Positions 2,950 through 19,530 of a stretch of DNA of 35,928 nt are shown piece after piece. Every line of letters begins with the position of its first letter. The first letter of the stretch is position 1. A program made the translations under genes and the position numbers. The notes below the pieces were generated by a model. That model worked only from the letters and a program-made list of their open reading frames with translations. It did not search any database and was not told the DNA's origin. Where the stretch lies: positions 1 through 35,928 of IMG/VR virus record IMGVR_UViG_3300014539_000001; one strand, written 5' to 3'. Origin of the DNA: a virus.

Positions 2950-3669
2950 ATGGATAAATTTTTAAATAAAATAATTTTAGGTGATAGTTTAGAAGTATTA
3001 AGACAAATACCAGATAACAGTGTGGATGCTGTTATTACAGATCCACCATATGCTAGTGGTGGGAAAACTACAGGAGAAAAAAGTGCATTACCATCAATAA
3101 AATATGCAAAAAATAAAGTAGTACACAGACCAGATTTTGTAGGTGATACGAAAGACAGCCGTTCCTGGTTACATTGGTGTGTATTATGGATTGGTGAATG
3201 CCATCGAATTTTAAAAGATAATGGTTATTTTTTAATGTTTAGCGATTGGCGACAATTACCAACAGCAACAGATGCAGTACAAATGGCGGATTTAATTTGG
3301 CGTGGTGTTGTAGCATGGGATAAAGGATTATGTGCTAGAGCCCCACATAAAGGCTATTTTAGGCATCAATGCGAGTATATAGTTTGGGGAACTAAGGGAA
3401 AATGTAAAAAAGCAGTCCATGCTGGTCCTTATGCTGGCTGTTTACGATACCAGGTAATGCAAAAGGATAAATTTCATTTAACAGGTAAACCAACGGCTTT
3501 GATGGAAGAACTTGTAAAAATAACTCCTGAAGGAGGTATAATTTTAGACCCATTTGTAGGCAGTGGTACTACTGCAGTAGCAGCTAAAAAACAGAATCGT
3601 AATTTTATTGGAATAGAAAAAACGGAAGTATATTATAATATTGCATTAAATCGTTTAAAGGAGATATAA
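2950..3669 (+). CDS. DNA methyltransferase, N6-adenine/N4-cytosine family (beta class). Orphan: no nuclease partner.
   Basis: Catalytic motif ITDPPY is near the N-terminus and the AdoMet motif DPFVGSGTTAVAA is near the C-terminus, as in PF01555-type enzymes. Confidence 0.9.
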   Translation: MDKFLNKIILGDSLEVLRQIPDNSVDAVITDPPYASGGKTTGEKSALPSIKYAKNKVVHRPDFVGDTKDSRSWLHWCVLWIGECHRILKDNGYFLMFSDWRQLPTATDAVQMADLIWRGVVAWDKGLCARAPHKGYFRHQCEYIVWGTKGKCKKAVHAGPYAGCLRYQVMQKDKFHLTGKPTALMEELVKITPEGGIILDPFVGSGTTAVAAKKQNRNFIGIEKTEVYYNIALNRLKEI

Positions 3670-3854: not shown

Positions 3855-4208
3855 ATGTATGGATTATGGGAATTCTTACGGAAAAATGCTAAAAAAATTA
3901 TTATTTTTGGCGGTATTATTCTTCTGTGCTTGTTCATCGGTTTCATGTTCGGCGGAAGAGAAAACGTATCTAGTAACGGAGTCTCAATTAACGACGTTAG
4001 AACAGAACTTAGCAACGCTCAAGACGCAAAATCAGACATTGCAGACACAGCTTCAGATATCGCAGACACAAGTACAGGCATTGCAGAAACAGTCGGAAAT
4101 CTTGCAAACTCAATCGACACAGCTACAGGAGCAAGTAAACACTTTGATGCAATCATTGATGAATGCACAGGAATTATTGAGCAAATACGAAAACAACCAG
4201 CTGAATAA
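3855..4208 (+). CDS. N-terminally TM-anchored helical protein (117 aa). Candidate i-spanin-like partner of a dual-coding pair.
   Basis: SD AAAGGA sits 8 nt upstream. N-terminus KKIIIFGGIILLCLFIGFMFGG, then an Asp/Ala/Thr-rich helical region. Third-codon positions are almost free of G, like the other genes of the AT-rich arm. Confidence 0.5.
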   Translation: MYGLWEFLRKNAKKIIIFGGIILLCLFIGFMFGGRENVSSNGVSINDVRTELSNAQDAKSDIADTASDIADTSTGIAETVGNLANSIDTATGASKHFDAIIDECTGIIEQIRKQPAE

Positions 4209-4335
4209 TGAAGATGATTATATTATTGGTGTAGGTGTTAGTTCTGATAGTTTAGGTATGTATATATCTAAAAATAAAACATGGCTATATCTTGATGAAG
4301 ATACAGCCACGATAGGTTTACAATATAGATTTTAG
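3886..4335 (+). CDS. Exported coiled-coil lipoprotein-like protein with an OMP-type C-terminal beta-signal. It overlaps 3855-4208 in the +1 frame.
   Basis: Signal peptide MLKKLLFLAVLFFCAC, a long Q/L/T heptad region, and C-terminus TATIGLQYRF. The track ORF starts at 3859; ATG 3886 fits a signal peptide better. Confidence 0.6.
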   Translation: MLKKLLFLAVLFFCACSSVSCSAEEKTYLVTESQLTTLEQNLATLKTQNQTLQTQLQISQTQVQALQKQSEILQTQSTQLQEQVNTLMQSLMNAQELLSKYENNQLNNEDDYIIGVGVSSDSLGMYISKNKTWLYLDEDTATIGLQYRF

Positions 4336-4499: not shown

Positions 4500-4958
4500 A
4501 TGACGGATAAAGCAAAATGGGGAGGAAAAAGAGAGGGCGCAGGTCGCCCTCTAACAGCGGGAGAAGTAAGAAAACAAAGACAGTTAAGAGCCAGTGAAAA
4601 AGAATGGGAAATTATAAAAGAGTTTTCTAAAATCTTAAAAAAAGAACCTACAAAGGCTAATAAAATAATTAATGGAATTAAACGTGAAATAAGTGGATTA
4701 GATTTGTTAGATAATATGATAGATTATACAGGCAGTTTTACAGCAATAGAAGCTAGTTATTTAGCAACAATAGCTATAAAATATCAACTTGATTATTATG
4801 AAAACAATCCTGATGAAGCATATTATAACTATACACCTGATATCTTGAAAGAAACTTTAAAGAAAATAAATCCAGAGAATATGGCGGTTGATGAAGATAC
4901 TTTAACAATTAAAGAAATAATAAATAAAGTAGAAGCCTTAACAACATTTTTATATTAA
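4500..4958 (+). CDS. Putative ribbon-helix-helix (MobC/CopG-like N-terminus) DNA-binding protein with an unknown C-terminal domain.
   Basis: SD AAGGTGA precedes ATG 4500. GGKREGAGRP...RKQRQLRASEKEWEIIKEF resembles the GRP...R-beta-strand-helix N-terminus of RHH/MobC-type proteins. The C-terminal 100 aa were not recognised. Confidence 0.5.
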   Translation: MTDKAKWGGKREGAGRPLTAGEVRKQRQLRASEKEWEIIKEFSKILKKEPTKANKIINGIKREISGLDLLDNMIDYTGSFTAIEASYLATIAIKYQLDYYENNPDEAYYNYTPDILKETLKKINPENMAVDEDTLTIKEIINKVEALTTFLY

Positions 4959-4977
4959 TTTTATCTTCAGATGAAAA

Positions 4978-5005
4978 TAAAAAAGAGTAGCCATTTGGCT
5001 ACTCT
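4978..5005 (-). terminator. Hairpin whose U-tract is on the minus strand (a second, back-up terminator for leftward RNA).
   Basis: AGAGTAGCC (4984-4992) pairs with GGCTACTCT (4997-5005). An A-run lies immediately 5-prime on the + strand (a T-run after the stem in minus sense), and no T-run follows on the + strand. Confidence 0.5.
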
Positions 5006-5017
5006 AAGTTTATATAA

Positions 5018-5046
5018 TTGACAATTATTATGAATTAATATATCAT
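5018..5046 (+). promoter_or_regulatory. Near-consensus rightward promoter.
   Basis: TTGACA (5018-5023), 17-nt spacer, TATCAT (5041-5046). Confidence 0.65.
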
Positions 5047-5093
5047 AGAAGCGTAGATAATTTTCTTAACAATCGAATAAAAAGTTTTTAGAA

Positions 5094-5174
5094 ATAAAAA
5101 AGACCAAACGTGTTGGTAGCACGATTGGTCTTGCCGAACAACCTACCGCAAATAAGTTGTCCGAGTTACTTTCT
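5094..5174 (-). ncRNA. Candidate antisense small RNA of about 80 nt with two stem-loops.
   Basis: It starts about 7 nt downstream of a perfect consensus promoter (5209-5181). Stem-loop 1 spans 5135-5163 and has a G-U pair only in minus sense (A-C mismatch in plus sense). The terminator hairpin 5100-5132 is followed by a U-run only in minus sense. Confidence 0.65.
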
Positions 5175-5180
5175 AAACTC

Positions 5181-5209
5181 ATTATACTTATGTATTTGCG
5201 ATATGTCAA
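5181..5209 (-). promoter_or_regulatory. Perfect consensus sigma70 promoter on the minus strand.
   Basis: Minus-strand reading: TTGACA (5209-5204), exactly 17 nt, TATAAT (5186-5181). Confidence 0.8.
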
Positions 5210-5329
5210 CATATGATATCACAAAAATGATTTTAGGTAGGTTAAGTAGGCACATTATAGCATTATTCCATTTTTCCCATGTGGGAAAAATGATGAAAAA
5301 TGTTGTGATGTGTTTTTTAATATCTAAAA

Positions 5330-5581
5330 TCACCTGAAGGAATAAACTTCAGGAGCGTGCCAAGATGCTTATTCTTGGAGGGGAAACCACACTTGGCAAG
5401 GTGTATAAACTAGAATTGCAGAAAGTAATTCACCGTATCGTCAGCGGAGGCAGGGAAATCGGCGGGGCGTGCAAATATATTCTACTGTTTGCATTTACCT
5501 AAGAGGGCGGAATGTTGTTAAACTCCCTTAATAAGCCTAAGTAAATAAAAACTCATTAGAGCCGTTTAGACGGCTTTTTTT
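5330..5581 (+). ncRNA. Candidate structured RNA or leader. GC-richer, no ORF of 60 aa or more, ends in an intrinsic terminator. Family not recognised.
   Basis: Hairpin CCTGAAG/CTTCAGG (5333-5353). CCAAG can pair with either of two CTTGG copies (alternative pairings). G-rich tracts are present and the terminator is at 5560-5581. A 45-codon ORF (5365-5502, SD AGGAG 9 nt upstream) is an alternative reading. Confidence 0.4.
5560..5581 (+). terminator. Rho-independent terminator.
   Basis: AGCCGT-TTAG-ACGGCT followed by T7. Confidence 0.65.
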
Positions 5582-5589
5582 ATTGAGTA

Positions 5590-5900
5590 ATTATATTATA
5601 TGGTTAAAAGTAGACAACGGTGGTTAAACGCAACGTAAGTTGCAGACTGGGATTGTAGCAAATAAATAAGCTATAAGCCGTATTGGGATAATAGACGGAA
5701 ACATCTAGTGGTTGGGGCAATTAAGTAACCATAAATATCCTACCTGTATAAAAGCAGGGACTAGTAGAAAACTGGACTGGCAGACGCAAGAAAACCAGGC
5801 GTAAAAAATATAGTTATATCTTTAGTAAACTGCTAAAGGTATAACTATATCTAGAACATGGCTCCGCAATCCTCCCAAGCGTAATCTTTTTTAGGTTAGA
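5590..5900 (+). ncRNA. Second ORF-free, GC-richer structured segment upstream of the SAP-domain gene. Includes a 17-bp stem at 5809-5849.
   Basis: No ORF of 60 aa or more on either strand. Hairpins: GCAAC-GTAA-GTTGC (5630-5643) and TATAGTTATATCTTTAG/CTAAAGGTATAACTATA (5809-5849). The latter has a U-G wobble only in plus sense. Function unknown. Confidence 0.3.
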
Positions 5901-5964
5901 AGTAAAGCCAACATTAGTGTCTAGTTTAAATAAATTTATATACACCAAGAAAGAAGGTGAATAG

Positions 5965-6153
5965 ATGCCAACAATAAAAGAGATAAAAGCTATAGCAAAA
6001 AACAGAGCAGTAGGATTACCGAAGAAAGCTAAAAAAGCTAATATGATACATATACTGCAGGAACAAGAAGGGAATATACCTTGTTATGCAACTAAGAAAT
6101 GTAATGATGATGTATGTCTTTGGTATAAAGATTGCCAAAAAGCTATAAAATAA
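5965..6153 (+). CDS. Small SAP/Rho_N-like (helix-extension-helix) protein with a four-Cys C-terminus.
   Basis: TIKEIKAIAKNRAVGLPKKAKKANMIHIL matches the Rho-N/SAP motif. The C-terminus is CYATKKCNDDVCLWYKDC. SD GAAGGTGA. Confidence 0.6.
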   Translation: MPTIKEIKAIAKNRAVGLPKKAKKANMIHILQEQEGNIPCYATKKCNDDVCLWYKDCQKAIK

Positions 6154-6230
6154 TATCGTTTGTGAGCTGTTTAAATTTTTATTAGATATAAATATATTAA
6201 TTTAAATTTATAATGGCTTATATAGGCGAT

Positions 6231-6283
6231 AAAAAAAGTCCTTGAGAAGTGATGAACTTTGCTCAAGGACTTTCTTGTTTTTT
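6231..6283. terminator. Bidirectional terminator between convergent genes.
   Basis: AGTCCTTGAG (6237-6246) pairs with CTCAAGGACT (6262-6271). An A-run lies upstream and a T-run downstream. Confidence 0.8.
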
Positions 6284-6297
6284 ATATATTTATAAGC

Positions 6298-6573
6298 TTA
6301 TTTGGATAAGTCTTTTAATATTAATTCATTTACATAGTTATTAAAACTGCGACCTTCACTAATTGCTTTTAGTTTAGCTTGCTCATATGCAGTTGGATAA
6401 ATGGTTAGCTGTACGCGTTTAGTTAATTTTTCTTCATTTTTACTTATTACTTCACGTACATTATATTTAGCTTCAGATATTTCTTCTGTTGGAGTTGTTG
6501 TATTGTTATTTTCATTTGTATCAAAAAAGAATTCTGCAGCATTACTAAAATCTTTTTGTTCCATTAAAATCAT
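6298..6573 (-). CDS. Ribbon-helix-helix partition adaptor (ParG/omega-like), translationally coupled to parA.
   Basis: The C-terminus KRVQLTIYPTAYEQAKLKAISEGRSFNNYVNELI shows the RHH pattern. Its ATG overlaps the parA stop (ATGA). Confidence 0.65.
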   Translation of the reverse strand: MILMEQKDFSNAAEFFFDTNENNNTTTPTEEISEAKYNVREVISKNEEKLTKRVQLTIYPTAYEQAKLKAISEGRSFNNYVNELILKDLSK

Positions 6574-7334
6574 CCTTCATTTATAATTTCATTTATTAAA
6601 TTTTTATAATCTCTGCCAGCTGTAGAATAGCGAGCATAAGAAAAAATATCCATTTGTTTGGTTTGTGCTTCACGTATAGCAATACTTTCACGAATAGCTG
6701 TATTAAAAACTTTTGTTCCAATTTTTGTAGCTATATCTGTTAAACTTTTACGTAGTGATTTGCCCATCACAGTGCGGGAATTAAATCTAGTTATCAAAAT
6801 TCCCATTATTTTTAAGTTATCATTACTATTTTTTTTTACAGCATTAATAGTATCTGTGAGTAACCTAATTCCCTGGATAGCAAATATATCGGATGTAGTG
6901 GTTATTATTACATAATCGCTGGCGGTTAAAGCATTTATTGTTACTATACCCAATGCGGGTGGTGTATCAATTATTACATAATCATATATAGGTTCAAGTT
7001 TTTGCAGAATATATTTTAAGATACATTCTGCCCCTTTTTTATTTTGGAGAGTAACAAGATGTTGTGAACCAGCAATAAAATCATTGGTAATAGCTTCATT
7101 GATAGGAATTTTCCCAGTAAGTACGTCATAAATGTTGTTTTTAGACTTTGCATTTAGAGCAAATGTTAAATTACATTGTGAGTCTAAATCTAGTAATAGA
7201 ACTTTTTTAGCTTGTAAACGTAGACCACAAGCTATATTATGTGCGGTGGTTGTTTTTCCAACACCACCTTTTTGGTTTATTATGGATATTACTTGCATTA
7301 ATATCACTCCCTTGAATATATGTGGTTTATACAT
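6570..7334 (-). CDS. parA: ParA/Soj-family partition ATPase (small, type Ib-like).
   Basis: Deviant Walker A QKGGVGKTTTA, then LLLDLDSQCN and IIDTPPALG. Confidence 0.92.
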   Translation of the reverse strand: MYKPHIFKGVILMQVISIINQKGGVGKTTTAHNIACGLRLQAKKVLLLDLDSQCNLTFALNAKSKNNIYDVLTGKIPINEAITNDFIAGSQHLVTLQNKKGAECILKYILQKLEPIYDYVIIDTPPALGIVTINALTASDYVIITTTSDIFAIQGIRLLTDTINAVKKNSNDNLKIMGILITRFNSRTVMGKSLRKSLTDIATKIGTKVFNTAIRESIAIREAQTKQMDIFSYARYSTAGRDYKNLINEIINEG

Positions 7335-7344
7335 ATATTATACA

Positions 7345-7490
7345 TTATAAAAATGTAAAAATAAAGTATATTAAATGTATATATAATATTTAATAGATAT
7401 ATAATATATTATTTAAATGTATATATAACATTAAAATGATATTATTAATACATTAATTTAATATTATATAAATGTATTAAATACATTAAA
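7345..7490. promoter_or_regulatory. Iteron array upstream of parA: candidate centromere (parS-like) and par promoter region.
   Basis: AAATGTATATATAA occurs perfectly at 7373-7386 and 7415-7428 (42 bp apart). The AATGTAT core also occurs at 7448-7454 (inverted), 7470-7476 and 7480-7486 (inverted), forming the palindrome AATGTATTAAATACATT. Confidence 0.55.
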
Positions 7491-7751
7491 CAACAATATA
7501 TAGTGTTTTTATCACAAAAAATCATAGTCAATCACATTTTGTCAAAAATCCATTGAAGGTGTACAAAAAAAGTAATGTAAGAAAATGTTAGATACTATAT
7601 ATTGTGGTTTTAATATTCAAATTTTAAATTCTACTTCCTATTTTTTAGCAAATATGAAGTAGAATTTATTTTGTTGTATGGTAATGGGAATATAATATAT
7701 AATAGATACGTTGCTAACCTCCAAACTGGCAACAGGAGGGAGGTGTTCTGA

Positions 7752-7841
7752 ATGGAAAGTTTAATATTATCTTTAATGGTATCTATCGTGGCAAGTGTAA
7801 TTGCGCATTATATTTGCAAATGGATTGATGGATACAAATAG
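7752..7841 (+). CDS. Type I toxin-like hydrophobic peptide (29 aa), Fst/par-like.
   Basis: My translation: MESLILSLMVSIVASVIAHYICKWIDGYK. SD GGAGGT (7739-7744) can pair with the anti-SD ACCTCC (7717-7722). A convergent sRNA is complementary to codons 3-8. Confidence 0.65.
   Translation: MESLILSLMVSIVASVIAHYICKWIDGYK
7759..7774. repeat. Direct repeat GTTTAATATTATCTTT, copy 1 (inside the toxin ORF 5-prime end).
   Basis: 16/16 identical to 7989-8004. Confidence 0.9.
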
Positions 7842-10703: not shown

Positions 10704-11063
10704 TTATTTATCATCACTTATACGCTTCATAAGGTCTAGTATTAAATATTTATCTTTATTATTTAATGTTAAGAAAAGTTTAATAAACTTTGTTTCCATA
10801 TCATTTAAAGTATATTTTTTAGTAATTTCTTCTAGTGCAGTTTGTCTGTTATTTTTTTCAATTTCACCAGTACCGTGTAAAAGCCATTCTTTATTAATAT
10901 TATATTTTTCACAAATGGCATTTATAGTTCTTTCGGGTACATTTCTTTCGCCTGTTTCATATTGTCCAATAATGGTTTGTTTTAAATCAATACTTTCACC
11001 AAATTTTGCTTGACTAAGATTTTCAGATTTGCGGATTTTTTTTATTCTTTCACCAATAGTCAT
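10704..11063 (-). CDS. XRE-family HTH repressor (CI-like).
   Basis: MTIGERIKKIRKSENLSQAKFGESIDLKQTIIGQYETGERNVP is a canonical HTH_3 motif. It is transcribed divergently from the early genes. Confidence 0.85.
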   Translation of the reverse strand: MTIGERIKKIRKSENLSQAKFGESIDLKQTIIGQYETGERNVPERTINAICEKYNINKEWLLHGTGEIEKNNRQTALEEITKKYTLNDMETKFIKLFLTLNNKDKYLILDLMKRISDDK

Positions 11064-12324: not shown

Positions 12325-13215
12325 ATGGCATTAGTACAACAAATGGTATATGGTAAAAACTTCATAGATGTGTCTAGGTATCAAAGTGGACGTATTGGTA
12401 AAAAAATATTAAATGGTCCAGCGTTAGGGAAAACACCATTAAGGCAGTTGCGTTATCAAGATAAAAAATCCGAGCGTAATTGTAGATATAAACTCAATAT
12501 GAATTTTGGTGGAGGTGATTTGTTTCTAACGCTTAGTTATCCACCATATGAGTTGATTGATTTTGCTACAGCAAGAAAGAATATAAATACCTTTTTGGAT
12601 ACTGTAAGAAAAATATATAAGCGCAATGGTAAAAAACTTAAGTATATTTTTGTGGCAGGTCTAACTAAAAGAGGTATGATACATTTCCACATTGTACTTA
12701 ATAAATTTGATACTGATGTATTAACTAAAGCATGGCAAAAAATAGTAGGTACAGAAAATTTTAAGTATCCACGTGTAACCATAAGACATTTAGATTACAG
12801 CGGAGAATATAAAAAACTTGCTAGTTATTTAATAAAAAATAGTAGGGAACAGTTTTATGGTAAGGAAAAGGTGCATAAGAAACGTTTTTGTGCATCTAAA
12901 AATCTTATTATGCCATTAGTTGTAAAAAAAATACTTAAGTATAACAGATTTTGGAGAAATATACCTAAAGCTTTAACAGGTTATACAATAGATAAAAATT
13001 CTATATATGATGGTTATGGTTGGGCAGATAATGGCGGACATTATGAGTGCTGCAGAGTGCAAAGATATACCATGTATAAAACAGATTGCACTAATTGGAA
13101 CTTGTATAAAAGTAAATACCGAAAGATATTTACAGATGATGATATACCAGAAATTATTGAAGAATGGACTGAGGAAAGCCATGTTAAGAAAAGAAGCAAA
13201 AGAGGTAGTTTGTAA
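12325..13215 (+). CDS. rep: HUH-superfamily rolling-circle replication initiator (Rep).
   Basis: The three RCR motifs occur in order: LFLTLSY (motif 1), MIHFHIVLN (HUH motif 2) and LASYLIKN (catalytic Tyr motif 3). Confidence 0.75.
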   Translation: MALVQQMVYGKNFIDVSRYQSGRIGKKILNGPALGKTPLRQLRYQDKKSERNCRYKLNMNFGGGDLFLTLSYPPYELIDFATARKNINTFLDTVRKIYKRNGKKLKYIFVAGLTKRGMIHFHIVLNKFDTDVLTKAWQKIVGTENFKYPRVTIRHLDYSGEYKKLASYLIKNSREQFYGKEKVHKKRFCASKNLIMPLVVKKILKYNRFWRNIPKALTGYTIDKNSIYDGYGWADNGGHYECCRVQRYTMYKTDCTNWNLYKSKYRKIFTDDDIPEIIEEWTEESHVKKRSKRGSL

Positions 13216-17255: not shown

Positions 17256-17744
17256 ATGGCCAAAGAAAAAAATGAGCAAATAAAGAGCAAATTTATTTAT
17301 ACAACAGCTGATACTTGCGAATTTTTTTCGATAAGCCGTGATACTTTATCTAATTGGGCAAAAAAAGGCGCGCCAAAAGTAGGGCGTGGTAAGTGGGATA
17401 TAAGGCAATTAATGCTGTGGCGTTATGAACAACAGAAAAACGTCAGTCCAGAAGCCAGAAAACTAGAAGCAGATGCGCGGTATCGGGAATTAAAAGCAGA
17501 AATGACGGAAATTCAACGCGATATCTTAAACGGTAAGTATATTGCATCGGCGGAAGTATATAAAACATTGGTGGAATGTTTCGGAAAAATAAAATCAATT
17601 TTGCTTTTTACCAGCAATCAAATTGCAACGGACCTGAGTTCCCAATATCCGGAGATAACTTTACTGGTTAAAGAGAAAATCGATAAACAAATTGAGAGGT
17701 GCTTAAATGAGTTATCTAAAACGGGGGCTAGTAGAAAGAAGTAA
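17256..17744 (+). CDS. terS: Terminase small subunit, Nu1-like.
   Basis: N-terminal HTH TADTCEFFSISRDTLSNWAKKGAP. Overlaps the GpA-type TerL start. Confidence 0.75.
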   Translation: MAKEKNEQIKSKFIYTTADTCEFFSISRDTLSNWAKKGAPKVGRGKWDIRQLMLWRYEQQKNVSPEARKLEADARYRELKAEMTEIQRDILNGKYIASAEVYKTLVECFGKIKSILLFTSNQIATDLSSQYPEITLLVKEKIDKQIERCLNELSKTGASRKK

Positions 17745-19530
17745 TAGCTCACAGCAGACTTTAGATAAGATAATTGCTATGGCTATGCAGACATTTAAGC
17801 CACCAGAAAAATTAACTGTTAGTCAATGGGCAGATAAAAATAGAATTTTGTCTGCGGATGAAACAGATAAACCAGGACCGTGGGAGACGGCAAACGTTCC
17901 GTATCTTAGAAAAATAATGGACTGCTTCACTGATGAACACGTTAGGGAGATAGTTTTTCTTAAGTGTACGCAGATTGGTGGCACAGAAGCACTTTTAAAC
18001 ATGGTTGGTTATGTAGTAGACCAAAATCCGAACCGTGTTATTTATGTTTTGCCAGATGATACATTTTGCAAAGATTTTTCTGAGCTTAGACTTCAAAAAA
18101 TGCTGGATAGTTCGCCGATACTTAAAAATAAATTTAATGAATATGAGAGTAAGGATACATTGCTTAAATTTAACGGAGGTTTTATATTTTTTGCTTCGGC
18201 ACAATCTCCGTCAAAATTGGCCAGCTGGTCAAGTCGATATATTTTCCTGGATGAAATTGAGAAATTTCCAAAGAAAGCAAAGAAGGAAGCCAGCCCGTTA
18301 AAACTGGCGGAGGAAAGAACGAAAAACCGCTTTAATGCCAAAATCGTGAAAGTATCAACTCCGGTTTATAAAAGTGGTCCTATTTGGATTGCATGGGAAA
18401 AAGCAGATAAAAGATACCGCTATTTTGTTCCGTGTCCGCATTGTGGCGAGTACCAGACTTTTGAATTGGCAAATATAAAGTGGCCAAAAGATGAGGAAGG
18501 AAATTCCAATATCACATTGGCACGACAGGCTGCTTATTATGTCTGTAAAAAGTGTGGTGGTCGTATCGATGACCGGCATAAAATGCAGATGTTAAAGCAC
18601 GGAAAGTGGATGGCGGAAAATACAACGGTAGGACACGCTAAATCTGTAGCATTTCACATTAATTCAATTTATTCACCGTGGGTTAGATTCGGCGATGTGG
18701 CAGCCGAATTTTTGGCCAGCAAAAATGACCCCGTGGATATGCAGAACTTTGTAAACTCATGGCTTGGAATGCCCTATGAAGATACTGCATCGGAACTTGA
18801 AGCAAATCAGATTTTAGCAAGGAGAACGGAAATACAAGAGGGATGTGTTCCGGACTTTACACAGCTTATAACTTGTGGTGTGGACGTACAGAAAAACAAT
18901 CTTTATTACACTGTACGCGCTTGGGGATTTGGCGTAATAAGCCAGAATATACAGTACGGTTCTCTTAAAAATTTTGATGAACTTACGGAATTAATGGATA
19001 GATATTTTTGCGATACAAACGGAGAGCCACGTTGGCAGATAGATTTATGCGTTATAGATAGCGGGTACAGGACTGAAGAAGTTTATGACTACTGTCTGCA
19101 AATGCAGAGCCTTATGGGAAATGTGGTAATCCCCTGCAAAGGTGAGTTTAACGTAAAATCCGAGGGCAGATTTAGAAAAAAGGTAATAGATAATGTAAGT
19201 GTAACGGAGACAAAGGCGGGACTTGGGCAGACTATTTATCTTGTAAATGTAGATAAATACAAAGATGTTATTGCATCCCAATTAAAACGACCGATGTATC
19301 AATATGGTGCATTCATGTTTCACGCTGACACTGAAATTGAATATGCTGAACAGATGACAAGCGAGCATAAAATTGTAGAAATAAAGAATAATAGGGAAGT
19401 TTATACATGGGTACCAAAAACAAGCCATGCAAAAAATCACTATTGGGACTGTGAAGTATATGCTTCTTTGGCGGCTGATTTAATGCACGTAAGACATTTG
19501 GATAAATTAGATATAAAAGAAGGTGAATAA
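17707..19530 (+). CDS. terL: Terminase large subunit, lambda GpA family.
   Basis: LTVSQWADKNRIL..., FLKCTQIGGTE (Walker A-like), and the GpA-typical zinc ribbon CPHCGEYQ...CKKCGGRID. 607 aa. Confidence 0.9.
   Translation: MSYLKRGLVERSNSSQQTLDKIIAMAMQTFKPPEKLTVSQWADKNRILSADETDKPGPWETANVPYLRKIMDCFTDEHVREIVFLKCTQIGGTEALLNMVGYVVDQNPNRVIYVLPDDTFCKDFSELRLQKMLDSSPILKNKFNEYESKDTLLKFNGGFIFFASAQSPSKLASWSSRYIFLDEIEKFPKKAKKEASPLKLAEERTKNRFNAKIVKVSTPVYKSGPIWIAWEKADKRYRYFVPCPHCGEYQTFELANIKWPKDEEGNSNITLARQAAYYVCKKCGGRIDDRHKMQMLKHGKWMAENTTVGHAKSVAFHINSIYSPWVRFGDVAAEFLASKNDPVDMQNFVNSWLGMPYEDTASELEANQILARRTEIQEGCVPDFTQLITCGVDVQKNNLYYTVRAWGFGVISQNIQYGSLKNFDELTELMDRYFCDTNGEPRWQIDLCVIDSGYRTEEVYDYCLQMQSLMGNVVIPCKGEFNVKSEGRFRKKVIDNVSVTETKAGLGQTIYLVNVDKYKDVIASQLKRPMYQYGAFMFHADTEIEYAEQMTSEHKIVEIKNNREVYTWVPKTSHAKNHYWDCEVYASLAADLMHVRHLDKLDIKEGE

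What the first reader, a model, noticed from the sequence alone, without database searches (positions are those of the whole stretch)
5330..5960. About 600 bp of ORF-free, GC-enriched, hairpin-rich sequence: candidate large structured RNA(s) or single-strand origin
Seen:
- In an arm where intergenic DNA is extremely AT-rich, 5330-5960 is visibly GC-richer and has no ORF of 60 aa or more on either strand.
- The first part (5330-5581) has a hairpin that includes part of an SD (5333-5353), mutually exclusive CCAAG/CTTGG pairings, purine/G-rich tracts, and ends in an intrinsic terminator (5560-5581).
- The second part (5590-5900) has several stems, including a 17-bp one (5809-5849) whose wobble pair works only in plus sense. 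It leads into a small SAP/Rho_N-domain gene.
- I could not match it to any riboswitch, ribozyme, tRNA/tmRNA or intron consensus from memory.

Inference, any of four options:
- a novel large phage/plasmid ncRNA (large ornate RNAs such as ROOL/GOLLD are often prophage-borne);
- a regulated leader;
- the lagging-strand (sso-type) origin that an RCR Rep replicon needs;
- in part, a 45-codon ORF (5365-5502).
Basis: partly seen in the sequence, partly recalled or inferred. Interest (0 to 1): 0.66.

Follow-up and report, generated by a model that had tools for sequence, protein, structure and literature searches.

The report
Large plasmid-borne structured RNA, antisense partner
The flagged stretch is the core of a previously undescribed, elaborately folded non-coding RNA of about 0.85 kb, paired with a small antisense RNA, found only on plasmids and phage-plasmids of Megamonas-type gut bacteria next to their partition genes, and its function is unknown.

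Summary
Window 5018 to about 5900 (+) is a transcription unit for a large non-coding RNA.

- **Distribution:** I found 26 non-identical copies (58-98% identical) in human-gut phage-plasmids, plasmid-like contigs and one isolate plasmid (Megamonas funiformis NZ_CP048628).
- **Structure:** On a structure-blind alignment, 95 proposed pairs are 97.3% paired, against 37-47% for slid controls. Of these, 43 pairs carry compensatory double changes. Supported features include an H-type pseudoknot, a kissing loop, two long-range helices and an invariant GAAA loop with a receptor-like CCUAA/AUGG internal loop.
- **Not coding, not DNA:** No ORF is conserved. G·U pairs and GNRA/UNCG loop swaps argue for plus-sense RNA rather than ssDNA.
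- **Antisense partner:** A conserved promoter (12/12 consensus match) drives an RNA of about 83 nt (5174->5092). Its hairpin is 99% paired on the antisense strand but only 69% on the sense strand.
- **Internal terminator:** The hairpin at 5558-5581 sits at the tip of a covarying arm joining both halves.
- **Known families:** Rfam 15 has no match, including ROOL and GOLLD.
- **Context:** The locus lies beside parA/parB in nearly all copies, about 4 kb away in the isolate plasmid.

Function is inferred only. My leading specific guess is antisense-controlled plasmid maintenance or copy control.

The parts
5018..5046 (+). Sense promoter: TTGACA (5018-5023), 17-nt spacer, TATCAT (5041-5046). Predicted start is near 5053.
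   Evidence: The scan scores it 11/12. Similarity to all relatives begins exactly at the -35 box. TTGACAAT and the spacing are invariant in all clades that have the leader. The Megamonas plasmid has TTGACG-17-TATTAT at the matching place.
5053..5227 (+). 5' leader of the large RNA, the target of the antisense RNA. It contains the invariant stretch UUGCCGAACAACCUACC (5131-5147), which is predicted to be single-stranded.
   Evidence: This is the most conserved part across clades. The stretch is unpaired in the MFE fold.
5181..5209 (-). Antisense promoter: TTGACA (5209-5204), 17-nt spacer, TATAAT (5186-5181).
   Evidence: The scan scores it 12/12. Both hexamers are invariant, and the spacer varies in sequence but not in length. 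A 12/12 promoter sits at the equivalent place in the Megamonas plasmid.
5092..5174 (-). Antisense RNA of about 83 nt with two stem-loops. Hairpin 1 uses sense coordinates 5135-5147/5151-5163. The terminator hairpin is 5100-5132, followed by a U-run at 5092-5099.
   Evidence: Hairpin 1 is 99.0% paired when read on the antisense strand and 69.0% on the sense strand. The terminator hairpin is 97.7% against 90.6%, with many compensatory pairs.
5228..5332 (+). Helix P0 (5228-5239 with 5321-5332) enclosing a hairpin of variable length (about 5246-5318).
   Evidence: RNAalifold pairs these columns. Six sequences have lost both arms of the inner stem together. A C-G to U-A change occurs in L038. By eye, the Megamonas copy keeps P0 as GGUUUUAGA/UCUAAAAUC.
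5333..5378 (+). Hairpins P1 (5333-5339/5347-5353) and P2 (5360-5364/5374-5378), with a loop-loop kissing pairing K1 (5341-5345 with 5369-5373).
   Evidence: P1 has 6 of 7 pairs and P2 3 of 5 pairs with compensatory changes, both about 99-100% paired. K1 is 99% paired: GAAUAA/UUAUUC becomes GAUUAA/UUAAUC in L047 and L071.
5389..5464 (+). Hairpins P4 (5389-5404), P5 (5414-5430) and P6 (5433-5447), plus the H-type pseudoknot PK6 (loop 5439-5442 with 5461-5464).
   Evidence: PK6 has 4 of 4 pairs compensatory and is 100% paired. Its five sequence states are CGUC/GGCG, CACC/GGUG, CGGC/GCCG, UGCA/UGCA and UGCG/CGCA.
5469..5529 (+). Hairpins P8 (5469-5475/5488-5494) and P9 (5503-5507/5525-5529). Their loops make long-range pairings: LR1 (5480-5485), LR2 (5513-5519) and the competing K8-9 (5477-5482 with 5510-5515).
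   Evidence: P8 has 4 of 7 pairs compensatory. P9 changes A-U to G-C or U-A. LR1, LR2 and K8-9 are each 100% paired with 3 compensatory pairs.
5535..5604 (+). Arm closed by GCC (5535-5537) with GGU (5602-5604). It has a tetraloop-receptor-like internal loop, CCUAAG (5536-5541) facing UAUGG (5599-5603), then the helix ACUCA (5551-5555) with UGAGU (5584-5588). The intrinsic terminator hairpin (5558-5577 plus U-run to 5581) sits at its tip.
   Evidence: The terminator is found by the scan. The arm folds in every clade with different flank sequences. Cognate 5' and 3' flanks pair better than non-cognate ones in a cross matrix of four sequence types. CCUAA and AUGG are invariant.
5605..5880 (+). 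3' half of the core. It holds the LR2 partner (5613-5619), a three-way junction P12 (5684-5690/5736-5742) with P13 (5693-5706, invariant GAAA loop 5698-5701) and P14 (5708-5713/5727-5732), P15 (5743-5758), the LR1 partner (5764-5769), the long hairpin P17 (5810-5848) and a conserved pyrimidine-rich tail (5860-5881). The 3' end is not defined.
   Evidence: Compensatory pairs are 6 of 7 in P12, 4 of 5 in P13, 3 of 6 in P14 and 2 of 5 in P15. The GAAA loop is kept on 8 different stems.
5965..6153 (+). Neighbouring 62-aa HeH/SAP-like ORF with four Cys. It is not part of the RNA.
   Evidence: A source names a homologue 'HeH/LEM domain protein', and distant homologues carry PF07498. The ORF is not adjacent to the RNA in L060-L064, L047, L038 or the Megamonas plasmid.

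Best explanation
Window 5018 to about 5900 (+) is the gene for a large non-coding RNA with an elaborate, pseudoknotted fold. It would be about 0.85 kb if read through, or about 0.53 kb if it stops at the internal terminator. It overlaps a convergent gene for an antisense RNA of about 83 nt (5174->5092, -).

**Shown:**
- It is conserved in 26 non-identical copies.
- It shows heavy compensatory variation in at least 17 helices, including a pseudoknot, a kissing loop and helices linking the two halves.
- It is plus-sense and non-coding.
- It has a conserved sense promoter, antisense promoter and both terminators.
- The antisense hairpin is under strand-specific selection.

**Inferred:**
1. The RNA works as a free-standing folded RNA, a scaffold or machine in the manner of ROOL, GOLLD or OLE, and not as an mRNA leader.
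2. The antisense RNA pairs with the exposed UUGCCGAACAACCUACC stretch of the leader. This sets the amount or the folding of the large RNA, which is the logic of ColE1 RNA I on RNA II.
3. The internal terminator gives a short and a long isoform. The long one is the form in which the covarying cross-terminator helices can form.
4. All copies found so far lie on phage-plasmids or plasmid-type contigs, one of them a complete 46-kb plasmid. All that can be typed are Megamonas-like, and in nearly all the locus lies within about 2 kb of parA/parB. I therefore place its role in keeping the element as a plasmid. The most likely specific role is replication or copy-number control, at about 0.3. The remaining probability is spread over unknown trans-acting roles.

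The confidence given (0.8) is for the shown part plus inferences 1-3. The specific functional assignment in inference 4 is much less certain.
For: **Extent and homologues**
- Similarity to 9 phage contigs runs from 5016 to 6153-6200.
- Further copies come from metagenome contigs and from plasmid-like and phage-plasmid contigs reached through the neighbouring small ORF.
- One isolate plasmid carries the core: Megamonas funiformis NZ_CP048628, 45160->44542, E 5e-93.

**Structure**
- RNAalifold on 19 sequences gives 245 pairs, 44 of them compensatory.
- On the structure-blind MAFFT alignment A4, 95 curated pairs are 97.3% paired against 37-47% when slid. There are 43 pairs with double changes against 2-12 when slid, and 0 of 500 shuffles reach the observed value.
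- PK6, K1, LR1, LR2 and K8-9 are 99-100% paired.
- The flanks of the terminator co-evolve.

**RNA, plus strand, non-coding**
- 10.9% of cells are G·U, and 4 pairs are always G·U.
- The P3 loop swaps between GAAA, GAGA and UACG, and the GAAA loop of P13 is invariant.
- No ORF is conserved.

**Signals and antisense RNA**
- Searches show the promoters and terminators.
- The antisense hairpin is 99% paired on the antisense strand against 69% on the sense strand.

**Context**
- parA/parB lie beside the RNA in the window and in L038, L047, L060-64, L067-71.
- In the Megamonas plasmid the annotated parA/parB pair is about 4 kb away, and a second, unannotated ParA-like gene read by eye lies about 600 bp upstream.
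- That plasmid has no annotated Rep gene, and the RNA sits in its largest gene-free gap.

**No known family**
- Rfam gives nothing.
Against: - No transcript data exist. Promoters, terminators and RNA ends are all predictions.
- The sequences fall into two deep clades plus subclades. Several long-range pairings (LR1, K8-9) therefore rest on essentially one evolutionary event each, and I estimate that a scan of all column pairs would produce a few such helices by chance.
- K8-9 overlaps LR1 and LR2, so at least one is alternative, intermolecular or spurious.
- A strong internal terminator argues that much transcription stops before the 3' half.

Against the maintenance or replication reading:
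- The phage-plasmids carry their own Rep (REP_ORF2-G2P).
- DnaA boxes are not enriched.
- GC skew in the Megamonas plasmid does not turn at the locus.
- Related plasmids L052-L056 have the same parAB and small ORF but no RNA within 5 kb.
- The antisense target is the most conserved part of the locus. This is the opposite of what incompatibility pressure on a copy-control RNA would produce.
Confidence: 0.8

Rival explanations
1. RNA-primed, Rep-independent plasmid replicon of the ColE1 type. The large RNA would be a pre-primer that forms a hybrid with the template near its 3' part. The antisense RNA would be the copy-number inhibitor. The locus would be the plasmid-state origin of these elements.
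For: - A cis-antisense RNA lies against the first 40-120 nt or so of a long non-coding structured transcript.
- The same layout occurs with a different leader sequence in the Megamonas plasmid.
- The locus always lies beside partition genes.
- The 46-kb Megamonas plasmid has no annotated Rep, and the RNA lies in its largest non-coding gap.
- In the phage-plasmid the only Rep sits in the early operon, divergent from a CI-like repressor. A separate plasmid-state replicon is therefore plausible.
Against: - There is no similarity to RNAI or RNAII.
- A primer has no known need for a receptor-like loop, an invariant GAAA loop, kissing loops or pseudoknots.
- A strong terminator lies inside the RNA.
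- There is no DnaA-box enrichment and no GC-skew turn.
- The leader and antisense region is more conserved than the core across elements that share a host range. That would make them mutually incompatible.
- Plasmids L052-56 have the same backbone but lack the RNA nearby.
Confidence: 0.25
2. Cis-regulatory leader. The whole region would be a long, antisense- and terminator-controlled 5' UTR. It would govern read-through into the downstream small HeH/SAP gene, or produce convergent transcription into parB/parA.
For: - In the window and in L067-L070 the small ORF with its RBS follows directly.
- An internal terminator could act as an attenuator.
- The 3' end of the RNA points at the 3' end of parB in most contexts.
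Against: - The small ORF is on the far side of parAB in L060-L064. It is 1.5-1.9 kb away, with parAB between, in L047 and L038, and about 7 kb away in the Megamonas plasmid.
- A different gene follows the RNA in L038 and L071.
- About 320 nt of covarying structure lies after the 'attenuator' and pairs with sequence before it.
Confidence: 0.1
3. Single-strand DNA element: an sso of the rolling-circle Rep replicon, or an ssi for complementary-strand synthesis after conjugative entry. The folds would form in ssDNA, not RNA.
For: - The phage-plasmids encode an RCR-type Rep on the same strand as the element.
- The plasmid hosts are conjugative, with T4SS, ArdA and SSB.
- The folding is strand-specific.
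Against: - Conservation starts at an ordinary duplex promoter and includes two intrinsic terminators with conserved U-runs.
- GNRA/UNCG tetraloop exchange, an invariant GAAA loop with a receptor-like CCUAA/AUGG loop, and four always-G·U pairs are RNA hallmarks.
- There is no CS-6 TAGCGW motif.
- At about 850 nt it is several times the size of ssoA- or ssoU-type origins, which by my own recollection are roughly 150-300 nt.
- The opposite strand carries its own selected hairpin.
Confidence: 0.03
4. Protein-coding or type I toxin-antitoxin locus. A small peptide, such as the 45-codon ORF at 5365-5502, would be the product, and the antisense RNA would be its antitoxin.
For: - An antisense RNA against the 5' part of a highly folded RNA recalls hok/sok.
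- An ATG in the P2 loop is conserved in most copies.
Against: - The ORF from that ATG is 45-52 codons in some copies but 14-17 codons in L033, L068 and the Megamonas copy. The start is AGG in L047.
- Indels of +2, +1 and -1 shift the frame. The SD is not conserved. The peptides are not hydrophobic.
- No other ORF is shared by all clades.
Confidence: 0.02
5. Degenerate or unrecognised self-splicing intron or other known ribozyme class, such as group I, group II including permuted forms, or RNase P-like.
For: The GAAA loop with an 11-nt-receptor-like motif, the multi-helix junctions and the size all resemble large ribozymes.
Against: - There is no hit to Intron_gpI, Intron_gpII, the group-II-D1D4 models, RNase P or any other Rfam model. 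This holds even at E<=5-10 with relaxed filters on four divergent copies.
- The element is intergenic with its own promoter, so there are no exons to join.
- I found no domain V-like hairpin by eye.
Confidence: 0.03

Closest known systems
ROOL RNA (Rfam RF03087)
   Same: - It is a large ornate non-coding RNA with multiple pseudoknots (PMC12286853).
- It is carried on phages, prophages and a megaplasmid. By my own recollection the 520-nt L. salivarius megaplasmid lncRNA of PMC5643018 was later recognised as a ROOL member; I did not check this.
- No function is known.
- Covariation-supported loop-loop contacts are present. In ROOL some of these turned out to be intermolecular (PMC12286853).
   Different: - There is no sequence or structure match in cmscan, even at E<=10.
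- ROOL lies near tRNA islands on phages. This RNA lies beside parA/parB on plasmid-type elements.
- This RNA has a dedicated cis-antisense RNA and an internal terminator.
- The host group is Megamonas-like (Negativicutes).
GOLLD RNA (Rfam RF01998)
   Same: The size is similar (about 800 nt). It has a two-part architecture, is borne on mobile elements, has kissing loops and a conserved GAAA loop, and its function is unknown (PMC12286853).
   Different: There is no cmscan match. The context differs, and GOLLD has no antisense partner or par linkage.
ColE1 RNA II / RNA I replication control (RNAI, Rfam RF00106)
   Same: A short cis-encoded antisense RNA with stem-loops is complementary to the 5' roughly 100 nt of a long, folded, non-coding plasmid transcript. 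Binding could redirect folding downstream. The ColE1 details here are from established knowledge.
   Different: - There is no homology.
- The target RNA carries tertiary motifs, pseudoknots and an internal terminator.
- Origin function is undemonstrated.
- The host is not a proteobacterium.
- The antisense target is more conserved than the rest of the locus.
ssoA/ssoU-type single-strand origins of RCR plasmids
   Same: Both are orientation-specific, heavily folded non-coding elements on replicons that encode an RCR-type Rep.
   Different: This element is several times larger. It is flanked by duplex-type promoter and terminator signals, shows RNA-type loop motifs and G·U pairs, has no CS-6 motif, and is present on a conjugative plasmid without an RCR Rep.
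hok/sok-type and par(pAD1) type I toxin-antitoxin loci
   Same: An antisense RNA acts against the leader of a highly folded RNA on plasmids, and a fold-back pairing of the leader is possible (CCUACC 5142-5147 with GGUAGG 5236-5241).
   Different: There is no conserved toxin ORF, and the RNA is 2-4 times longer.

Membership tests
ROOL (RF03087) | Match to the family covariance model at or near the curated score | tested here: not met
   No ROOL hit at gathering on the window or on the Megamonas plasmid. None at E<=10 on 4950-6250, and none at E<=5 on L068, L060 or L047.
GOLLD (RF01998) | Match to the family covariance model at or near the curated score | tested here: not met
   Same scans, no hit.
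ColE1-type RNA-primed replicon | Cis-antisense RNA complementary to the 5' part of a long non-coding transcript | tested here: met
   This is predicted from sequence only. The antisense promoter scores 12/12, a terminator follows, and the antisense hairpin is under strand-specific selection. The layout is repeated in the Megamonas plasmid.
ColE1-type RNA-primed replicon | Homology of the antisense RNA to RNAI (RF00106) or other plasmid ctRNA families | tested here: not met
   No such Rfam hit at E<=10.
ColE1-type RNA-primed replicon | Replication of the element without a plasmid-encoded initiator | tested here: inconclusive
   No Rep is annotated on the complete Megamonas plasmid, though the gene table is incomplete. 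The phage-plasmids do encode a Rep.
ColE1-type RNA-primed replicon | Persistent RNA-DNA hybrid at the origin, cut by RNase H and extended by DNA polymerase I | not testable with these tools
   This needs replication assays and primer mapping.
ssoA-type single-strand origin | Conserved CS-6 (TAGCGW) in a terminal loop | tested here: not met
   The motif is absent from 6 of 7 representative copies and is not at a conserved place in the seventh.
ssoA-type single-strand origin | Orientation-dependent conversion of ssDNA to dsDNA | not testable with these tools
   This needs an experiment.
Type I toxin-antitoxin | Conserved small toxin ORF in the sense RNA | tested here: not met
   No ORF is shared by all clades. 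The candidate ORF is truncated or lacks its start in 4 of 9 representatives.
Group I / group II introns, RNase P, tmRNA, tRNA | Match to Rfam models or ARAGORN | tested here: not met
Large ornate bacterial ncRNA (descriptive class, not a homology family) | More than 500 nt, no conserved ORF, many covarying helices with pseudoknots or tertiary contacts, conserved unpaired nucleotides | tested here: met

The most novel reading that the evidence does not exclude
The locus is a protein-independent, RNA-governed plasmid replicon in Negativicutes. An ornate pre-primer or initiator RNA of about 0.85 kb would have its folding gated by a cis-antisense RNA. This would be a ColE1-like principle outside Proteobacteria, but with a tertiary-structured RNA, shared by conjugative plasmids and phage-plasmids. 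A second reading is also not excluded: the conflicting, covarying loop pairings (K8-9 against LR1 and LR2) are intermolecular bridges, and the RNA self-assembles into a multimer as ROOL and GOLLD do.
Probability: 0.2. Interest if true: 0.9.

Novelty: new variant of a known kind. Interest (0 to 1): 0.8.

Why it matters
- **Rarity:** Only a handful of bacterial non-coding RNA classes above 500 nt with intricate folds are known (OLE, GOLLD, ROOL, HEARO, and raiA if counted). Each has opened new biology or structural surprises.
- **What is new here:** This one is a separate family with no Rfam match. It has strong comparative support, a narrow and tractable host (a cultured Megamonas funiformis strain carries it) and two features the others lack. 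These are a dedicated cis-antisense RNA and a constant link to plasmid partition modules on both plasmids and phage-plasmids.
- **A handle on function:** The antisense promoter can be mutated, and copy number and stability can be measured.
- **Open question on replication:** How these Negativicutes elements, including a 46-kb conjugative plasmid with no recognisable Rep, replicate as plasmids is not known. This locus is a candidate to test.

Tried and rejected
- **Database scans with no result:** Rfam at gathering and relaxed thresholds on the window and four divergent copies gave only chance hairpin hits, such as rli36 on the 17-bp stem and miRNA models. ARAGORN found nothing. blastn and megablast of the window against GenBank phages and PLSDB found nothing except the small ORF in the Megamonas plasmid. 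Later queries with the divergent copies found only that plasmid again.
- **Chance pattern hits:** Exact 17-mer scans of IMG/VR gave extra hits (L015, L018, L020, L022, L024) that lie in coding DNA of an unrelated high-GC phage. A further hit, L030, is only an 18-nt match and was judged chance without being read.
- **Scans that found nothing:** A 20-base pattern scan of GTDB genomes found nothing. One viral scan was wasted on a pattern with a wrong spacer. The corrected pattern found only the known contigs.
- **Rejected pairings:** RNAalifold paired 5134-5142 with 5455-5463 and 5492-5510 with 5858-5885. By eye these do not hold in the other clades. The local PK6 and P9 pairings explain the same columns with real compensatory changes.
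- **Rejected replicon swap:** I tested whether the 318-aa gene that replaces the RNA in L052-L056 is an alternative Rep. It is a Sel1/TPR repeat protein.
- **Uninformative origin tests:** DnaA-box counts and GC skew gave no signal.
- **Rejected ORF and motif:** The 45-codon ORF and the CS-6 motif were both rejected.
- **No second promoter:** By eye I found no conserved promoter between the terminator and 5599.
- **Literature:** Searches for a described RNA of this kind in Megamonas, plasmids or phage-plasmids found nothing relevant.
Full report
**1. Observation**

The flagged stretch 5330-5960 is 0.38 GC. Other ORF-free stretches of the window are 0.20-0.29. It holds no ORF above 45 aa. It folds better than shuffled sequence, with z = -2.4 for 5320-5585 and -4.7 for 5586-5964. 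The hairpin 5333-5353, the CCAAG/CTTGG hairpin, the terminator at 5558-5581 and the long stem 5810-5848 are all present. Rfam at gathering on the whole window, Rfam at E<=10 on 4950-6250, and ARAGORN find no known RNA.

**2. Extent and relatives**

GenBank phages and PLSDB gave no DNA match to the window.

- Searching IMG/VR with the neighbouring 62-aa ORF found nine phage contigs of 35-47 kb. Window 5016-6153/6200 is 83-93% identical in them, and similarity starts exactly at a TTGACA box.
- A pattern scan of metagenomes added 14 human-gut contigs.
- Looking up contigs that encode relatives of the small ORF added three more divergent groups. These are phage-plasmids L060-L064, plasmid-like contigs L047/L057 and L071, and contigs L067-L070 that share a gene block with a Megamonas plasmid (539-aa ORF, 69-aa ORF, SSB, 105-aa ORF, ArdA, then ParA).
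- A profile of all copies then found the core in an isolate: Megamonas funiformis JCM 14723 plasmid NZ_CP048628, 45160->44542, E 5e-93.

In all there are 26 non-identical copies. Identity between clades falls to 58-66%. A loop-anchored pattern found no further IMG/VR members.

**3. Structure**

RNAalifold on 19 sequences predicted 245 pairs, 44 of them with compensatory changes. I curated 17 helices (95 pairs) and counted them on A4, a plain MAFFT alignment of the 26 cores.

| Measure | Observed | Slid controls (1-3 columns) |
|---|---|---|
| Cells paired | 97.3% | 37-47% |
| Pairs with changes on both sides | 43 | 2-12 |

None of 500 shuffles reached the observed values. Highlights:

- **P1:** 6 of 7 pairs compensatory.
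- **P12:** 6 of 7 pairs compensatory.
- **PK6 (H-type pseudoknot):** the loop of P6 (5439-5442) pairs with 5461-5464 in five different sequence states, with 4 of 4 pairs compensatory.
- **K1 (kissing loop):** the loops of P1 and P2 pair as GAAUAA/UUAUUC, which becomes GAUUAA/UUAAUC in L047.
- **LR1 and LR2:** 5480-5485 pairs with 5764-5769, and 5513-5519 pairs with 5613-5619. Both tie the 5' half to the 3' half.
- **K8-9:** a third pairing (5477-5482 with 5510-5515) is equally well kept but overlaps LR1 and LR2. It is either an alternative state or an intermolecular contact. In ROOL and GOLLD, covariation-supported contacts proved to be intermolecular (PMC12286853).
- **Loop motifs:** the GAAA loop at 5698-5701 is invariant on eight different stems. 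A CCUAA(G)/(U)AUGG internal loop resembling the 11-nt tetraloop receptor is invariant. The P3 loop swaps between GAAA, GAGA and UACG.

A caution applies. The structure was derived from these sequences, and the copies form two deep clades. LR1 and K8-9 therefore rest largely on one event each.

**4. RNA, plus strand, non-coding**

G·U pairs make up 10.9% of paired cells, and four pairs are G·U in every sequence. On the other strand these would be A·C. The candidate 45-codon ORF is 14-17 codons in three clades and has no start codon in another. No ORF is shared by all clades, and the supposed SD varies.

**5. Transcription signals and the antisense RNA**

- **Sense promoter:** 5018-5046 scores 11/12. 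A predicted start near 5053 gives a leader of about 175 nt.
- **Antisense promoter:** on the minus strand, TTGACA-17-TATAAT at 5209-5181 scores 12/12. Its hexamers are invariant while its spacer varies in sequence but not length.
- **Antisense terminator:** the hairpin 5132-5100 plus U-run follows.
- **Antisense RNA:** the predicted RNA of about 83 nt folds into two hairpins. Across 23 distinct sequences the first hairpin is 99.0% paired when read on the antisense strand but only 69.0% on the sense strand. All variation runs through G·U-preserving transitions, which is direct evidence that the antisense transcript itself is under selection.
- **Target:** it includes the invariant UUGCCGAACAACCUACC, which is unpaired in the predicted sense fold.
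- **Megamonas plasmid:** the leader sequence is different and holds five CTACTAAAAG repeats. The layout is the same: sense promoter, antisense terminator, and a 12/12 antisense promoter just upstream of helix P0.

**6. The internal terminator**

The hairpin 5558-5577 with its conserved U-run looks like a working terminator. The sequences on its two sides nevertheless pair. The arm folds in every clade with four different flank sequence types, and cognate flanks pair better than non-cognate ones. Together with LR1 and LR2, this says that a read-through RNA of about 850 nt is the selected form, perhaps alongside a 530-nt form. I found no conserved promoter after the terminator. The 3' end is undefined. 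Conservation across clades fades after about 5880.

**7. Context and host**

The window is a phage-plasmid-like genome.

| Feature | Coordinates |
|---|---|
| GH25 lysin | 2268-2855 |
| DNA methylase | 2950-3669 |
| ParA | 6570-7334 (-) |
| Small RHH ParB | 6298-6573 (-) |
| CI-like repressor | 10704-11063 (-) |
| RCR-type Rep | 12325-13215 |
| Terminase | 17707-19530 |

No integrase turned up among the ORFs I scanned in the first 17 kb. In every context the RNA lies on the same element as a parA/parB pair and within about 2 kb of it. The exception is the Megamonas plasmid, where an IS and a methylase cassette intervene and a second, unannotated ParA-like gene, read by eye, lies about 600 bp upstream.

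The small HeH-like ORF follows the RNA only in some contexts, so the RNA is not its leader. Plasmids L052-L056 have the same parAB and ORF but carry a Sel1-repeat gene where the RNA would be.

Host indications point to Megamonas. A homologue of the small ORF is named from a Megamonas funiformis MAG. The best PLSDB ParA match is the Megamonas plasmid at 51%. The one isolate copy is also in Megamonas.

**8. Comparison with known families**

The RNA resembles ROOL and GOLLD in size, ornate fold, carriage on mobile elements and unknown function. It fails their covariance models and differs in context (PMC12286853). The antisense arrangement works like ColE1 RNA I/RNA II, but there is no homology and origin function is untested. 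The sso, type I TA and intron readings each fail a defining feature.

**9. Mechanism**

- **Shown:** there is a conserved, covarying, plus-sense non-coding RNA locus with an antisense partner.
- **Inferred:** it acts as a free-standing folded RNA. The antisense RNA controls its level or folding through the leader.
- **Role:** it probably lies in plasmid-state maintenance, and replication or copy-number control is the most specific candidate at about 0.25-0.3.
- **Against the replicon idea:** the phage-plasmids have their own Rep. There is no DnaA-box enrichment or skew signal. The antisense target is unusually well conserved. The fold is richer in tertiary motifs than a primer would need.

**10. 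Verdict**

This is a real, well-supported new family of large structured RNA with a cis-antisense regulator. Function is unknown but experimentally accessible in a cultured strain.

Noticed in passing
window 5965-6153 (+); L032 4001-4210; L058/L065: The 62-aa ORF after the RNA has an N-terminal HeH/SAP/Rho_N-like helix pair and an invariant C-x6-C-x4-C-x5-C tail. In Megamonas-type plasmids its homologue sits directly after a serine recombinase gene. This hints at a DNA-binding accessory of resolution or partition rather than a link to the RNA.
   Followed up: partly
window 3859-4335 (+), overlapped by 3855-4208 in another frame: This ORF downstream of the GH25 lysin has a signal-peptide or lipobox-like N-terminus (…LFFCACSS…) and a long Q/L-rich coiled coil. 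That would fit a spanin-like lysis protein, and so a host with an outer membrane such as the Negativicutes.
   Followed up: no
L076 (NZ_CP048628) 45290-45760 and 45790 onward: Upstream of the RNA in the Megamonas plasmid I saw five CTACTAAAAG direct repeats, three AGTTTAT repeats and two large palindromes (20-bp arms at 45691-45734). A ParA-like gene (MNNRVIAIVNQKGGVGKT…) runs across the record start and is missing from the gene table. These are probably the operator or centromere of a second par locus.
   Followed up: partly
L047 1060-3318: In a MAG contig labelled 'uncultured Bacilli', the RNA and parAB module sits next to a 458-aa MFS transporter (PF07690), which by eye looks like a Tet(L)/Tet(K)-type efflux pump, and an IS6-family transposase. 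The module therefore also travels with what may be a resistance gene, and the MAG label may be a binning artefact given the Megamonas affinities.
   Followed up: no
window 7335-7800: The stretch upstream of parA is extremely AT-rich (GC 0.15-0.20). It is probably the par promoter or centromere region and was not analysed for repeats.
   Followed up: no
window 5142-5147 and 5236-5241: The leader CCUACC is complementary to GGUAGG, which overlaps the 5' strand of P0, and the antisense RNA carries the same GGUAGG. The Megamonas copy lacks both. Instead it has leader CUACUAAAG repeats complementary to CUUUAGUAG just upstream of P0. This may be a fold-back switch, but invariant columns give no covariation test.
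   Followed up: partly
window 4984-5005 and 6238-6275: A two-way terminator hairpin at 4984-5005 (both strands in the scan) bounds the RNA and small-ORF module on the left, and a similar-looking hairpin read by eye at 6238-6275 bounds it on the right. The module 5016-6153 is flanked by unrelated sequence in some relatives (L002, L007), so it behaves as a mobile cassette.
   Followed up: partly
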